A DNA stretch of 63,356 nt, counting the filler, from Reclinomonas americana ATCC 50394 (lineage: Eukaryota), in the NCBI GenBank assembly GCA_048213135.1. It is 6 parts of 6 records of this genome, joined end to end, with 100 filler letters (N's around TTAATTAATTAA, not from the genome) between each part and the next. Parts side by side here need not be neighbours in the genome. Positions count along the whole stretch, not along the records: positions 18,553 to 39,270 come from PS015380.1; 5 more parts are not named here. One strand, given 5' to 3'. Below the pieces are notes generated by a model. The model was not told the origin of the DNA, did no database searches, and saw nothing but the letters and a program-made list of their open reading frames with translations. Of this stretch, positions 25,145 to 29,739 are shown one piece after another (position 1 is the stretch's first letter; each line of letters begins with the position of its first letter). Position numbers and translations under genes: made by a program.

Positions 25145-25487
25145 TCACTGCATCGCCGAGTTCGCAACGTTCATGAAGTTCACGTAGCCAGTGGAGAGGT
25201 TCTGAGTGGAGGCAAGAGCACTGCTCTGGAACTCAGGCGTAAGCTGCAAAATAACAAAGAAAGAGCGCGAGTGAGAGTGCGAGTGAGTGAGTGAGAGAGA
25301 GTGAGTGTGACGCAACAGACGAGTTGCTCATCACGGCATCGTCCATGCCGAGCATGCTCGGGAGGACGTTGTAGTGACCGCCACTGAGTGTGTGAGAGAG
25401 TGTGAGAGTGTGTGAGAGTGAGTGACACAGGCACTTGCGAAACTAGGGGCCAATGGGATCAATCATGGCGGGCACGGGGGTAGACAT
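25145..25487 (-). CDS. Tandem microprotein copy 4 (69 aa; candidate Reb/Tri-like)
   Basis: Exons 25444-25487, 25317-25383 and 25145-25243 give MSTPVPAMIDPIGPYGGHYNVLPSMLGMDDAVMSNSSLTPEFQSSALASTQNLSTGYVNFMNVANSAMQ*. Confidence 0.8.
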
Positions 25488-25692
25488 GGTGGTGTGTGGT
25501 CTGTGTGAGTGTGATGTGAGAGAAGGAGAGGAGGGAAGAGAAGGAGGAGGGCAAGGGAGGCGGTGAACGCACTGATGACGACGGAGTCAAGCAGGAAACA
25601 GGACTGATGCAGACGTCGCATGCTCTTCATTGCAGCGTGTTCTGCTCTGTTTCTCTCTTGCTGAGTCTGGCACGACGAGAAGCACAAGTGGC

Positions 25693-26446
25693 TTAGACAC
25701 CGCCGCTCATCATTGCGCTCTGATCGTTGGCGGCCGAGGTGAAAAAGTTGACTTCGCCGGTCGACAGGGACTGGTTCGCCGCCAGCGTGCCGATCTGGAA
25801 CTGCGAGTTGTACTGTTGTGCGGGAGCGGGGAAGAGGGGGAAATGTGAGCGCAGATCGTAGAAGGCCAGGAAGAAAGGCCGCTATAGGTGAGAATTCGCA
25901 CTCAATCGTGAATGGCTTGCAAGTGACAGCTCACAACAAACAGAGGGACACGGGAAAGTGAAACAGAGAGCGTCAATGCCTTGGGCAACGTTAGGGGAGA
26001 GACAGAGCATGTGGTCCCTGGAGGTGTTTGGCTTTTGTGCTTTCCGGACACGATGAAACTCATCATGTTCGAGGTGTGCATGATATGAGCGAGAGCGAGA
26101 GGCAAGGTGGGTGAGGAAAGAGAGAGACAGAGAGAGGAGGAGAAGAAGAAGAGAAGCGAGATTCATCACTCGTTCGCTCTCAAACGCAGTCAATGCCTCA
26201 CTCTTCTCTCTTTCAAACGCAACGATGGCAGGGTTGGCCAACACTGAGTTATCCAAACCAATCAGACCGGCAGTGGCCACGTAGTGCACACCGCTGCACG
26301 CAGAAGGCATGTGTGTGAGAGAGTGACACAAAAAAACAGCCACACAGTCACTCTTCCCTCGATCACTCCCACTCTTTCTCTCTCTCCCCCTGCCTTATAC
26401 GCAACTTGGGGCCCACAGGATCAATCAGCGTAGGAATGGACGACAT
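25693..26446 (-). CDS. Tandem microprotein copy 3 (76 aa; candidate Reb/Tri-like)
   Basis: Exons 26406-26446, 26224-26293 and 25693-25812 give MSSIPTLIDPVGPNGVHYVATAGLIGLDNSVLANPAIYNSQFQIGTLAANQSLSTGEVNFFTSAANDQSAMMSGGV*. Confidence 0.85.
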
Positions 26447-26562
26447 CTCTTCTCACAAGCACTCAAAAAAAGGTTGATGGCTGTAGGACTTTGGAAGTCG
26501 CCCTCCTTTGACGGAGTTCATTCAGACTTTACCGTCTCTCAGCAAATGAAGGCAAGGGTGGC

Positions 26563-27756
26563 TTAGAAGCCACCGCTCTCCATCGCGGCCTCATCGGCAG
26601 CGCCCGTCTTCAGGAAGTTGACGTAGCCGGTCGACAGAGACTGATTGGCAGCCAGCGTGCCGATCTGGAACTGCGGGTTGTACTGTTGTGCAGGAGAGGT
26701 GGGGAAAAGGACGAAGAGTGAGAACAGCGCAAGCAGAGCGCCATAGCACCCAGGATTGTGGAGCAACACAAAGTAGCAAAGGTGAAGAGAAGAATGGTGC
26801 AGATGCAGAAGCGGAGCAAGAGATGGAACGGAATGCCGATGCATTGCACAATTGCACGTGCAAAGTGCGCACTCGGCTGCAGTGTGTGGGAGACGAGAAA
26901 AGGAGCACAATGTGGCGCAGCAAGAAAGAGCAGGAGCATACAAAGCGCAAAACCGCAGAGAACTCTGCTGCAGTGTGTCGAGGTGAGGAAGGAGTTCACG
27001 AAGTTGGTTAGTCTAACAGGAAGCAACACCGTGGGGACGAATAGAAGGAGAAGGAGAAGACTGTGGAATGCTTTGCAATGTTCGATCGCGAGATAGGGAA
27101 ACTGAAGCGCAGATGAGTTCCTGCAGGAGAGAGGCGTGGAACTGACACAGAAGAGGACATGGAGATGGAGTACGCAGCAAGACAGAAAGCAGAGAGAAGA
27201 CTGTTTGACTGTAGCGCTTTCGGACATGTGGGGTCAGTGCTGAAACACATGATGTTCGAGGTGTGCACATGATGAGAGAGCGAGAGAAGAAGAGAGAGAG
27301 GAGGAGAGAGGAAGCAAGTGAGCGAGGAAGTGAGAAGCGAGATTCATCATACACGCAATCAATACTTCTCACAAGAGTACTTTCTATCAACAACAAGAGA
27401 AACGTAACAATGGCCGGGTTGGAAAGCACCGAGTTATCGAGGCCAATCAGGCCGGCGGTGGCCACGTAGTGCACACCACTGCAAACAAACAAAAAAACGC
27501 GCAAATGCATGAGAGACAGAGAGAGTGAGAGTGAGTGAGAGAACCGTGCTCTCTCTCTCTTGCATGTACACATGAACGCACTCTTCTCACACACGCTGAG
27601 AGAGAGAGAGGGAGAAGAGTGAGAGTACGAGAGAGAGTGAGTGTGTGAGAGTGAGTGCGAACACATAATGGGACTCACACACTCTCACAGTCTTCAATCT
27701 CTCTCTCTCCCAAACACACACACTCACACACAAGCACGCACATACACTCACACAAG

Positions 27757-27802
<46 letters not shown>

Positions 27803-27928
27803 AGCACAGTCACTCGATCACCAGTCACTCATGTTCTCTCTCTTTCCCACTCTCTCTCTCATTCTCTCTCTCTCTCCCATACGCAACTTGGGGCCCACGG
27901 GATCAATCAGCGATGGAATGGACGACAT
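26563..27928 (-). CDS. Tandem microprotein copy 2 (76 aa; candidate Reb/Tri-like)
   Basis: Exons 27888-27928, 27409-27478 and 26563-26682 give MSSIPSLIDPVGPNGVHYVATAGLIGLDNSVLSNPAIYNPQFQIGTLAANQSLSTGYVNFLKTGAADEAAMESGGF*. Confidence 0.85.
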
Positions 27929-28086
27929 GCTCTCTCACACAATCACTCACAAAGTTGATACACGAGCACAGGACTTTGGAAGTCCCTCAATTCATTGCAT
28001 TCGGGCACCTCTCTCTCTCTTTCCTCACTTGACAAGCGGCCAGCAGCAGCAGAGGACGAGAGCAGTCAGTACAAGGCGAGGATGGC

Positions 28087-29739
28087 TTAGAAACCACCGG
28101 TGCCCAACGAGGCCTCATCGGCGGCCGCCGTCTTCATGAAGTTGACGTAGCCCTCCGACAGGAACTGGGTCGCAGCCAGCGTGCCGACCTGGAACTGCGG
28201 GGAGTACTGTGGTGCGAGGGAGGAAGGAGAGAGAGAGTGAGAATCAAAGCAAAGGAGAAAAGAGCAGGAGAGCACGTGAATGCCGACTCTGCTGCATGCG
28301 CAGGGCGAGGAGCATGAAGGAAGAAGCCCCTGATTGAATGAAGAATGCTCCTGGATCTGCCGTCTGCTTACGTGACCGCACAACAAGAACGCTTTGCAAA
28401 GAAAGGACGCGAGAAGTGTGGAGAAGCGCACATCTGCGCCTAAAAACTCTAACGCAGGCAGTGGAGCGAGGGCAGGAAGAAGGCAAGAAGCAGAAAAGCG
28501 AGAATGCCCACGGCTCTGCCTTCTGGCAGCATAAGAGGAACGCCTAGGTGAGAAGCGCAAGGTAGAGCCCAAGAACAGGGTGCAGGCGTGTGAAGGAAGA
28601 CAGCAACTGTTCACATGGGCGCTTACAAAAAAGTAAACAGAGAACGAGAACCTTCTGGTGAACGGGTTAACGGGGATGCTTTTGCGACGTGAGAACGCGA
28701 AAGGATAGAGCAGAGAGGCGCACAGCTGCGACATCGCAGGCTGTGGAGCGCAGGAAGATGGCAGGAACAGGCGAATGCTTTGAGAAGCACACAACAGAGC
28801 CCAAAGCCTCTGACGAGCGTGCGAAGGAAGTAGCCCGTGACATCAATTCATGGATCTATTGTTGAGAAAGGGCGAGAAAGACGGTGCACATGCGAACACG
28901 CAAGCTTCTGAGCAAGTACAAAACGGTGCGCATTCATGCAACATTGCACGTGGCTCTCAGCAGCGCAGTGCAGTGACAGGGCGATGAGAGGCAAGGAGAG
29001 GAGCGAACGAGTGTGAACGGAGCGGTTGACTGCAATGCTTTCTCGGACACAAGGGGTCAGTGTTGACTGGATGATTCGAGGTGCGCATGATAAGAAGAGA
29101 AAGAGAAGGAGAGAGAGGGAGAGAGAGAGAAAAAGGAGGGCGCGGAAGAGCAAAGAGATTTACCCGCGAAGTCAATACATCTCACAACAGGTACACTCTA
29201 TACAAAAAAAAAAACGCAACGACAGTGGGGTTGGCCATCACCGCGTGATCCAGGCCAATCAGACCAGCAGTGGCCGCGTAGTGCTCACCACTACACATAA
29301 AAAAAAACAAGCACACAAACGCCACATAAGTGAGAGAAAGAAAGAGAAAGAGATATCGGTGAACCCGTGCTCTTTCTCAAGCAGGGAAGCACACAAGCAC
29401 ATAAGAACATGCACTAGCAGGAGCGAGAGAGAGAGGAGAACAAGAAGAAGAAGAAGAAGAAGAAGAAGAACAAGAATGAGAAGAAGAAGAGGAAGAAGAA
29501 GAAAAGTTTCACTGAACTCTCACTATGTCACACACACTCTCTCTCTCTCACACACACACACACTCACTCACACACTCACTCACTCACACTCACTCCTCCA
29601 CTCATCTACTCACACAATCACACACACTCACTCTCCCCTCACTCTCTCACTCTTCCCTCTCTCTCTCTCTCTCTGCCTCTCTCTCACACACACGCAACTT
29701 GGGGCCCACAGCACTCGACAACGACGGAACGGACGACAT
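28087..29739 (-). CDS. Tandem microprotein copy 1 (76 aa; candidate Reb/Tri-like)
   Basis: Exons 29699-29739, 29221-29290 and 28087-28206 give MSSVPSLSSAVGPNGEHYAATAGLIGLDHAVMANPTVYSPQFQVGTLAATQFLSEGYVNFMKTAAADEASLGTGGF*. Confidence 0.85.

What the first reader, a model, noticed from the sequence alone, without database searches (positions are those of the whole stretch)
25145..29739. Hidden tandem array of four 3-exon microproteins, candidate R-body/ejectisome ribbon (Reb/Tri) family
Seen: four head-to-tail genes with equivalent intron positions and phases (exons 41/70/120 nt in copies 1-3) encode 69-76 aa proteins. The shared pattern is GP-x-G-x-HY...(L/M)(I/L)G(L/M)D...(Q/E)FQ-x3-LA-x2-Q-x-LS-x-G(Y/E)VNF. 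They are acidic, A/S/G/N/Q-rich, have no Cys, Trp or Arg and no signal peptide, and show many synonymous differences while the introns have diverged. Known: bacterial RebA/B R-body proteins and cryptophyte ejectisome Tri proteins (ejectisins) are tiny, acidic, multi-paralog ribbon polymers. Inference from recalled similarity only: this is an extrusome-ribbon gene cluster, suggesting a cryptist-type host. Otherwise it is a new polymer-forming microprotein family.
Basis: partly seen in the sequence, partly recalled or inferred. Interest (0 to 1): 0.85.

Follow-up and report, generated by a model that had tools for sequence, protein, structure and literature searches.

The report
Tandem orphan three-exon microprotein genes
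Four small, intron-split genes sit head to tail in an unidentified eukaryote and encode a family of tiny acidic proteins with no detectable relatives, including no detectable link to the bacterial R-body proteins they were suspected to resemble.

Summary
On the minus strand of 25145-29739 lie four head-to-tail genes. Each has three exons (41/70/120 nt in A-C, 44/67/99 nt in D), GT..AG introns at the same positions and phases, and intact 76/76/76/69-codon reading frames. Synonymous changes exceed non-synonymous ones in 5 of 6 pairs. CDS GC3 is 0.76-0.80 against intron GC of 0.45-0.53.

The Reb/Tri assignment is not supported. Pfam and NCBIfam find nothing in 8 exon peptides. Reb profiles built here from 284-287 bacterial sequences score the four spliced proteins at 0.1 bit or less, while RebA/B/D score 81-111 bits. 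hhalign gives 0.2% probability. None of the published Reb motifs is present. Cryptophyte Tri sequences could not be reached.

Exon-3 searches of 1.84 billion representative proteins, metagenomes, viral contigs, plasmids, phages and PDB found no relative. What remains is a resemblance in composition only: a low-charge core with a charged tail, and r 0.81 to Reb composition.

Best reading: a real, lineage-restricted microprotein family, possibly self-assembling, with function untested. No RNA data were available. The odd GTTGCGT donors are this genome's normal splice signal.

The parts
29699..29739 (-). gene A exon 1 (ATG at 29739; 41 nt)
   Evidence: in-frame stop 12 nt upstream
29221..29290 (-). 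gene A exon 2 (70 nt, entered in phase 2)
28087..28206 (-). gene A exon 3 (120 nt including TAA)
   Evidence: AF2 of this peptide gives one helix, pLDDT 72
27888..27928 (-). gene B exon 1
27409..27478 (-). gene B exon 2 (donor GTTACGT)
26563..26682 (-). gene B exon 3 (including TAA)
26406..26446 (-). gene C exon 1
26224..26293 (-). gene C exon 2
25693..25812 (-). gene C exon 3 (including TAA)
25444..25487 (-). gene D exon 1 (44 nt)
25317..25383 (-). gene D exon 2 (67 nt)
25145..25243 (-). gene D exon 3 (99 nt including TGA)
27970..27984 (-). palindromic 15-mer GACTTCCAAAGTCCT, 42 nt upstream of the ATG of gene B; candidate promoter or 3'-end element
   Evidence: only 2 exact copies in the window, this one and the one before gene C. 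Its role is inferred.
26485..26499 (-). the same palindromic 15-mer, 39 nt upstream of the ATG of gene C

Best explanation
These are four real, tandemly duplicated, three-exon protein-coding genes of an unidentified eukaryote. They encode a lineage-restricted family of about 7.3-7.7 kDa acidic proteins. The family has no signal peptide and no membrane segment. Its core is almost free of charge, and the only cluster of charges sits in a variable C-terminal tail.

The family is not a detectable member of the RebB/Tri R-body family.

Most likely mode of action, which is inferred and not shown: the proteins stay in the cytosol, fold as short helical units (helix predicted for the exon-3 half), and work by self-association or co-association of the paralogues into an oligomer or higher-order structural assembly. 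The tandem copies would supply dosage and subunit variety.

My odds for each step:
- real spliced coding genes: 0.9
- no homology to Reb recoverable by profile methods: 0.85
- self-assembling structural role: about 0.3
For: Gene reality:
- Intron positions and phases are conserved, all 8 introns are GT..AG, and all four frames are intact.
- Synonymous changes exceed non-synonymous ones in 5 of 6 pairs.
- GC3 is 0.76-0.80 against intron GC of 0.45-0.53, and against GC3 of 0.61, 0.68 and 0.77 in three other coding stretches of the window.
- The donors match the genome-wide GTTGCGT signal: 44 copies against 10.6 expected. An OGDH-like exon ends exactly at one of them, 56589/56590.

Orphan status (exon 3 only):
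- No relative among 1.84 billion representative proteins. The 2 hits are repeat proteins that match only 11-18 profile positions.
- 0 of 71 pattern hits confirmed in metagenome contigs, and 0 of 23 in viral contigs.
- No plasmid or phage match.
- No credible PDB match: the best is a 17-residue stretch at E 0.016.

Not Reb.

Cytosolic, not membrane:
- The maximum 11-residue mean hydropathy is 1.06, and it is 0.70 or less across the N-terminus.
- The spacers leave no room for an upstream exon.

Hints of assembly:
- Charges are confined to 1-3 core positions plus the tail.
- Amino-acid composition correlates with 284 Reb cores at r 0.81, against 0.57-0.58 for two generic sets.
- The exon-3 peptide is predicted as a single helix, residues 3-35, mean pLDDT 72.
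Against: - No transcript evidence exists. The only two runs holding any of the locus are small DNA runs that cover 27433-27695.
- Every large-database search could use only the 39-40 aa exon-3 peptide, half of the protein, so distant relatives may have been missed. The 'near' and 'shorter' length classes of the word-indexed search were not run.
- Gly (10.4%) and Pro (6.4%) are about twice the Reb values, which argues against a simple all-helical ribbon subunit.
- AF2 tends to draw isolated short peptides as helices.
- The A-C pair shows no significant excess of synonymous change (p 0.36), so gene A may be under relaxed constraint.
- Nothing tested here bears directly on self-assembly.
- Contents of a membrane-bound extrusome would be expected to need a signal peptide (general cell biology, recalled), and none is present.
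Confidence: 0.45

Rival explanations
1. The proteins are extremely diverged Reb/Tri homologues that polymerise into an ejectisome-like or R-body-like coiled ribbon.
For: - Small, acidic, multi-paralogue proteins without Cys or Trp, with a low-charge core and a charged variable tail. PMC13430693 (passages read) describes the same layout for Reb domains 1-3 versus domain 4.
- Composition correlates with Reb at r 0.81.
- By eye, AGL..(D/Q)N(S/A)V..Q(F/Q)Q can be lined up with Reb's AGL..QNAV..QQQ if a 7-residue gap is allowed.
Against: - Pfam PF11747 does not hit any of the 8 exon peptides at E<=10.
- Reb HMMs from 287 and 284 bacterial sequences give -1.6 to 0.1 bits, while RebA/B/D score 81-111 bits.
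- hhalign gives probability 0.2% and P 0.3 over 13 columns.
- The microprotein profile scores 291 Reb-locus ORFs at 6.2 bits at best, below the reversed-sequence null of 7.0 bits.
- QITD, KxxxD/E, NAV and QQ(Q) are all absent.
- The cryptomonad proteins are reported to share similarity with Reb proteins (PMC3583457 passage), so a true Tri relative should score against Reb.
- There is no signal peptide.
Confidence: 0.07
2. The proteins are small soluble, non-polymeric proteins, for example a lineage-specific subunit, chaperone-like binder or stress-related protein, amplified in tandem for dosage.
For: - Most taxonomically restricted small proteins are not polymers (general knowledge).
- Purifying selection is moderate (dN/dS 0.17-0.84).
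- There are no targeting signals.
- High Gly/Pro content fits a compact or partly disordered small protein.
Against: - The core has only 1-3 charged positions and GRAVY is positive (0.05-0.29). This is unusual for a soluble monomer of 70 residues and does not fit hydrophilin or LEA-type stress proteins.
- No known complex subunit family matched.
Confidence: 0.35
3. The array is not protein-coding: a repeated non-coding unit or decaying pseudogenes whose open frames are accidental.
For: No RNA or protein evidence was obtainable. The surroundings are rich in low-complexity repeats.
Against: - All four copies, at 43-83% amino-acid identity, keep the ATG, the frame, the stop, and both intron positions and phases.
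- pS exceeds pN significantly in 5 of 6 pairs.
- GC3 is 0.76-0.80 against intron GC of 0.45-0.53.
- Copy D has diverged to dS of 1.0-2.6 yet remains intact.
Confidence: 0.05
4. The proteins are precursors of secreted or processed peptides (signalling, antimicrobial or RiPP-like).
For: Small size and a tandem multigene array.
Against: - No signal peptide and no room for an upstream exon.
- No Cys, no basic residues and no dibasic processing sites.
- Conservation is spread over the whole length rather than confined to a core peptide.
Confidence: 0.04

Closest known systems
RebB family R-body proteins (Pfam PF11747; RebA/B/D of Caedibacter taeniospiralis pKAP298)
   Same: - Small proteins encoded by several clustered paralogues.
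- Acidic, with virtually no Cys, Trp or Arg.
- Rich in A/S/N/T/M, with a low-charge core and a charged variable C-terminal tail.
- Overall composition correlates at r 0.81.
   Different: - No sequence or profile similarity.
- The QITD, KxxxD/E, NAV and QQ(Q) motifs are absent.
- Shorter: 69-76 aa against a median of 107 aa for the Reb ORFs collected here.
- About twice the Gly and Pro content, more Phe and Tyr, and half the Gln.
- Eukaryotic genes with two spliceosomal introns.
Cryptophyte/katablepharid ejectisome Tri1, Tri2/3-1 and Tri3-2 proteins (Yamagishi et al. 2012, not read; described in PMC3982174 and PMC3583457, passages read)
   Same: Eukaryotic nuclear multigene families of small proteins. 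Guillardia theta has 4+8+4 tri genes.
   Different: The cryptomonad proteins are reported to share similarity with Reb proteins; the proteins here show no such similarity. A direct comparison was not possible because no Tri sequence could be reached with the tools. The host here is not identified as a cryptist.
Taxonomically restricted (orphan) tandem microprotein gene families of protists in general
   Same: No homologues outside the lineage, short multi-exon genes missed by ORF scanning, and local tandem duplication with divergence.
   Different: This is a category rather than a family. It says nothing about mechanism.

Membership tests
RebB family (Pfam PF11747) | Significant match to the family profile | tested here: not met
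   - Pfam hmmscan of 8 exon-2 and exon-3 peptides at E<=10: 0 families. The same library labels P0007-P0011 as PF11747.
- Own HMMs from 287 and 284 bacterial Reb sequences score the four full-length spliced proteins at -1.6 to 0.1 bits. The positive control, RebA/B/D, scores 81-111 bits.
- hhalign probability 0.2%.
RebB family (Pfam PF11747) | Diagnostic motifs QITD(N), KxxxD/E, NAV and QQ(Q) (PMC13430693) | tested here: not met
   The motif definitions come from passages of PMC13430693. In the alignment of the four proteins there is no QITD, no NAV (HAV/NSV/DAV instead) and no QQ (QFQ/EFQ instead). The single Lys of A and B is followed by Asp at +5, not +4.
RebB family (Pfam PF11747) | Alpha-helical small subunit with a low-charge polar/aliphatic core and a charged, variable C-terminal domain | tested here: inconclusive
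   The charge layout matches. AF2 predicts a helix only for the exon-3 half, at pLDDT 72. The N-terminal half could not be folded because spliced sequences are not accepted by the fold tool. High Gly/Pro content argues against an all-helical fold.
RebB family (Pfam PF11747) | Several paralogous genes clustered at one locus | tested here: met
   Four head-to-tail paralogues within 4.6 kb. This feature is not specific to the family.
RebB family (Pfam PF11747) | Assembly into an insoluble coiled ribbon that extends on a pH or other trigger | not testable with these tools
   This needs expression and microscopy.
Cryptist ejectisome Tri proteins | Sequence similarity to Tri1, Tri2/3-1 or Tri3-2 | not testable with these tools
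The only evidence is indirect: the cryptomonad proteins are reported to share similarity with Reb proteins, and these proteins do not match Reb.
Cryptist ejectisome Tri proteins | Host is an ejectisome-bearing lineage (cryptomonads, katablepharids, some prasinophytes; PMC3982174) | tested here: inconclusive
   No genome is held for the window. The best hits of a conserved OGDH-like exon are only about 31% identical and taxonomically mixed. The host remains unidentified.

The most novel reading that the evidence does not exclude
This is a eukaryote-born family of about 7.5 kDa proteins that arose independently of Reb. Its paralogues would co-polymerise in the cytosol into a ribbon, filament or lattice, making it a convergent counterpart of bacterial R-body subunits built from a different sequence family. 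That would explain the Reb-like composition, the near-absence of charge in the core and the tandem paralogues.
Probability: 0.15. Interest if true: 0.75.

Novelty: new member of a known kind. Interest (0 to 1): 0.35.

Why it matters
The locus shows that a four-gene family can be invisible to ORF scanning when its exons are only 41-120 nt long, and that it can still be recovered from paralogue comparison alone. If the proteins do self-assemble, they would be a second, unrelated route to tiny charge-poor polymer subunits of the kind used in R-bodies. Such subunits interest people who work on protist extrusomes and on protein-based actuators. As things stand, the practical value is a corrected annotation and a clear negative: the Reb/Tri label, and the inference about the host drawn from it, should not be passed on.

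Tried and rejected
- **Whole-genome search:** no genome is held for this window.
- **Earlier notes of the scan:** nothing for this genome or sequence. A word search returned unrelated intron notes.
- **Sequencing runs:** no RNA holder is listed. The two small DNA runs of one sample hold one genomic contig each over 27433-27695 and show no joints.
- **Word-indexed protein search:** the 40-aa exon-3 query in the 'longer' class gave 4 candidates and none scored. The 'near' and 'shorter' classes were not searched, because the remaining two searches went to RebB (only 5 close relatives) and to an OGDH-like exon for host identification (no near-identical hit, best about 31% identity).
- **ESM Atlas, two calls:** best scores 0.83 and 0.81, below the 0.9 lead level, and no RebB cluster among them.
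- **PDB profile search:** the best hit is a 17-residue stretch of EncM at E 0.016, judged to be chance.
- **Metagenome scans:** a profile-derived pattern scan and a 23-nt degenerate exon-3 pattern both found nothing.
- **Complex prediction:** Complex prediction for exon-3 self-association was not available.
- **Intronic RNA in the conserved start of intron 2:** there is no Rfam match near gathering score, and the consensus fold is weak, -6.5 kcal/mol from 3 sequences of GA/CT-rich pairing. Rejected as unsupported.
- **Literature search for a GTTGCG/GUUGCG donor consensus:** only primer-type matches turned up. I cannot say whether it is in print for this organism.
- **Yamagishi et al. 2012:** the paper is not held.
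- **By-eye motif line-up with Reb:** considered and rejected because profile methods give it no support.
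Full report
**What is in the sequence**

Read on the minus strand, 25145-29739 holds four head-to-tail units. Each opens with an ATG, runs through three short exons separated by GT..AG introns, and ends at a stop codon.

| Gene | Exon 1 | Exon 2 | Exon 3 |
|---|---|---|---|
| A | 29739-29699 | 29290-29221 | 28206-28087 |
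| B | 27928-27888 | 27478-27409 | 26682-26563 |
| C | 26446-26406 | 26293-26224 | 25812-25693 |
| D | 25487-25444 | 25383-25317 | 25243-25145 |

Exon sizes are 41/70/120 nt in A-C and 44/67/99 nt in D. Exons 1+2 sum to 111 nt in all four, so intron 1 is phase 2 and intron 2 is phase 0 in every copy. The joined frames are 231, 231, 231 and 210 nt with no internal stop. Intron lengths fall along the array: 408/1014, 409/726, 112/411 and 60/73 nt.

In A-C an in-frame stop lies 9-12 nt before the ATG. The spacers from one stop to the next ATG are only 158, 116 and 205 nt, so no upstream coding exon, and therefore no hidden signal peptide, can be fitted in for B-D.

**Is it more than chance?**

- tblastn of the four spliced proteins against the whole window places every hit with E<1e-3 on these 12 exons. 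The best hit elsewhere has E 0.18, so there is no fifth copy in the window.
- Amino-acid identity is 83% (B-C), 61-70% (A with B or C) and 43-46% (D with the others).
- Synonymous differences per site exceed non-synonymous ones in all six pairs. The excess is significant in five (Fisher one-sided p 0.025 to 1e-6) and not in A-C (p 0.36). dN/dS is 0.17-0.84.
- B and C differ at 13/5/23 first, second and third codon positions.
- GC3 is 0.76-0.80, while the introns have 45-53% GC. Three other coding stretches of the window have GC3 of 0.61, 0.68 and 0.77.
A and B still align at 68% over 823 nt, from upstream of exon 1 into intron 2, and A-C share the first 170 nt or so of intron 2. That is about what dS of 0.35-0.52 predicts for neutral DNA.

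**The splice sites**

Six of the eight donors read GTTGCGT. The others are GTTACGT and GTTTCGC. This looks odd but is the local rule.

- GTTGCGT occurs 44 times in the window against 10.6 expected, and none of 100 shuffles reached that count.
- It is the most enriched GT-heptamer that is not a simple repeat.
- It comes in strand-coherent runs, and G precedes it in only 1 of 44 cases.
- The only OGDH-like exon found by tblastn ends at 56589, with GTTGCGT starting at 56590. The open frame holding the ubiquinol-cytochrome c chaperone match, next to gene A, ends a few bases after one at 30827.

The gene models therefore use this genome's ordinary donor. Splicing is still an inference. The one search for sequencing runs listed no RNA holder, and the two small DNA runs of one sample cover only 27433-27695 as unspliced genomic sequence.

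**The proteins**

- They are 76, 76, 76 and 69 aa, 7.3-7.7 kDa, with pI 4.05-4.49 and GRAVY 0.05-0.29.
- They have no Cys, Trp or Arg and 0-1 Lys. A/G/S/N/Q/T make up 49-55%.
- Charges are limited to one to three acidic positions in the first 60 residues, plus a short charged, variable C-terminal tail.
- No 11-residue window exceeds a mean hydropathy of 1.06, and the N-terminus stays at 0.70 or below. There is no signal peptide and no membrane segment.
- AlphaFold2 on the exon-3 peptide with its four-row alignment gives one helix, residues 3-35, at mean pLDDT 72 and pTM 0.35. This is weak evidence, because isolated short peptides are often drawn as helices.
- The N-terminal half could not be folded, because spliced sequences are not accepted by that tool.

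**Test of the Reb/Tri idea**

I fetched the reb locus of Caedibacter plasmid pKAP298 and 80 further bacterial loci. From these I collected 305 Reb ORFs, 287 of them unique, out of 1047 ORFs.

- HMMs of the full ORFs and of 284 core domains score the four spliced proteins between -1.6 and 0.1 bits. RebA, RebB and RebD score 81-111 bits.
- Profile-profile comparison (hhalign) gives probability 0.2% and P 0.3 over 13 columns.
- In the other direction, a profile of the four proteins scores 291 Reb-locus ORFs at 6.2 bits at best, below the best score on the same sequences reversed, 7.0 bits.
- Pfam and NCBIfam give no family for any of 8 exon-2 and exon-3 peptides at E<=10.
- The motifs given as diagnostic for primary Reb proteins, QITD(N), KxxxD/E, NAV and QQ(Q) (PMC13430693, passages read), are all absent from the alignment.
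- A by-eye line-up (AGL, then D/Q-N-S/A-V, then Q-F/Q-Q) needs a 7-residue gap and has no statistical support.
- Cryptophyte Tri sequences could not be reached. Passages in PMC3583457 and PMC3982174 report that the cryptomonad trichocyst (ejectisome) proteins share similarity with Reb proteins, so a true Tri relative should have scored against Reb.

Membership is therefore not met for Reb and not directly testable for Tri.

**Search for any relative**

All large searches had to use the exon-3 peptide or its four-row profile, which is half of the protein.

- The profile against 1.84 billion representative proteins returned 2 hits at E<=0.001. Both are long repeat proteins that match only 11-18 profile positions many times over.
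- The word-indexed search in the 'longer' class gave nothing.
- JGI metagenome contigs: 0 of 71 pattern matches confirmed, and 0 matches to a 23-nt degenerate pattern.
- Viral contigs: 0 of 23 pattern matches confirmed.
- Plasmids and phages: no tblastn match at E<=1.
- PDB: only a 17-residue chance stretch.
- ESM Atlas: best scores 0.83 and 0.81, below the level that counts as a lead.

The family is an orphan as far as these tools can see.

**The host**

No genome is held for the window. A conserved OGDH-like exon finds nothing closer than about 31% identity, and the named hits are a taxonomic mixture. The host is an unidentified eukaryote with about 55-60% GC, many GA/GT microsatellites, a U2 snRNA gene and GTTGCGT donors. 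Nothing supports or excludes a cryptist.

**What it most likely is and does**

- Shown: a real tandem family of three-exon microprotein genes under purifying selection, without detectable relatives and without targeting signals.
- Inferred: the products stay in the cytosol.
- Suggestive only: the near-absence of charge in a 60-residue polar/aliphatic core, the charged variable tail, the retention of four diverged paralogues, and a composition that correlates with Reb cores at r 0.81 against 0.57-0.58 for two generic protein sets. These are the properties of small self-associating structural subunits. I put a self-assembling or co-assembling role at about 0.3.
- Rival: a soluble non-polymeric small protein, at about 0.35.
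- Arguments against a Reb-like all-helical ribbon: Gly and Pro are about twice the Reb values, and there is no signal peptide, which contents of a membrane-bound extrusome would be expected to need (recalled general knowledge).
- Other rivals: diverged Reb/Tri homology about 0.07, non-coding or pseudogene about 0.05, secreted peptide precursor about 0.04.

**Verdict**

The Reb/Tri label and the cryptist inference are not supported. The fallback of a new microprotein family stands, but its function is untested. Orphan tandem small-protein families are common in protist genomes, so interest is moderate to low (0.35) unless assembly is demonstrated.

Noticed in passing
whole window; e.g. 56590-56596 (+), 30827-30833 (+), 29692-29698 (-): GTTGCGT behaves as this genome's 5' splice-site consensus. 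There are 44 copies against 10.6 expected (none of 100 shuffles reached that count), in strand-coherent runs, with G at position -1 in only 1 of 44 copies, and one copy lies exactly at the end of an OGDH-like exon. T/G/C at intron positions +3/+4/+5 departs strongly from the usual GTRAGT. Two literature searches found no description of it.
   Followed up: partly
5049-5264 (+): U2 spliceosomal snRNA gene (Rfam RF00004, 84.2 bits, gathering score 46).
   Followed up: no
55657-56589 (+) and downstream to 63356: An exon encoding the N-terminal 300 residues or so of a 2-oxoglutarate dehydrogenase E1-like protein. No E1_dh, transketolase or C-terminal domain was found in the remaining 6.7 kb. The rest of the gene may be far away, very diverged or missing.
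   Followed up: partly
29040-29225, 27225-27413, 26040-26228 (-): The first 170 nt or so of intron 2 are alignable in genes A-C, with short invariant blocks. No supported RNA structure and no Rfam family were found. Neutral retention since the duplication is the simplest reading.
   Followed up: yes
27970-27984 and 26485-26499 (-); AATGAA at 27996-27991, 26522-26517, 25631-25626 (-): A perfect palindromic 15-mer lies about 40 nt upstream of the ATGs of B and C only. An AATGAA hexamer lies 41-96 nt after the stop codons of A, B and C (read). These are candidate promoter and poly(A) signals packed into the 116-158 nt spacers. The roles are inferred.
   Followed up: partly
25501-25572 (-): A possible 72-nt intron in the 5'UTR of gene D, with a GTGCGT start and a long pyrimidine tract ending in CAG 13 nt before the ATG. 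It is similar in size to D's other introns (60 and 73 nt). Read; untested.
   Followed up: no
24539-24854: A 16-bp tandem repeat (AGCGGCCAAGCGACTG, 19.6 copies) lies a few hundred bases beyond the 3' end of gene D.
   Followed up: no
18000-24000: A purine-rich, low-GC block on the + strand (GC 0.29-0.45, AT skew up to 0.51) with long AG and CA microsatellites and 47-254 bp repeats. No protein family was found in its long open frames.
   Followed up: no
27598-27715: Inverted GA-rich and CT-rich low-complexity arms in intron 1 of gene B give sub-threshold miRNA-precursor-like Rfam matches on both strands (best 34 bits against gathering 85). This is probably a repeat hairpin and not a gene.
   Followed up: no
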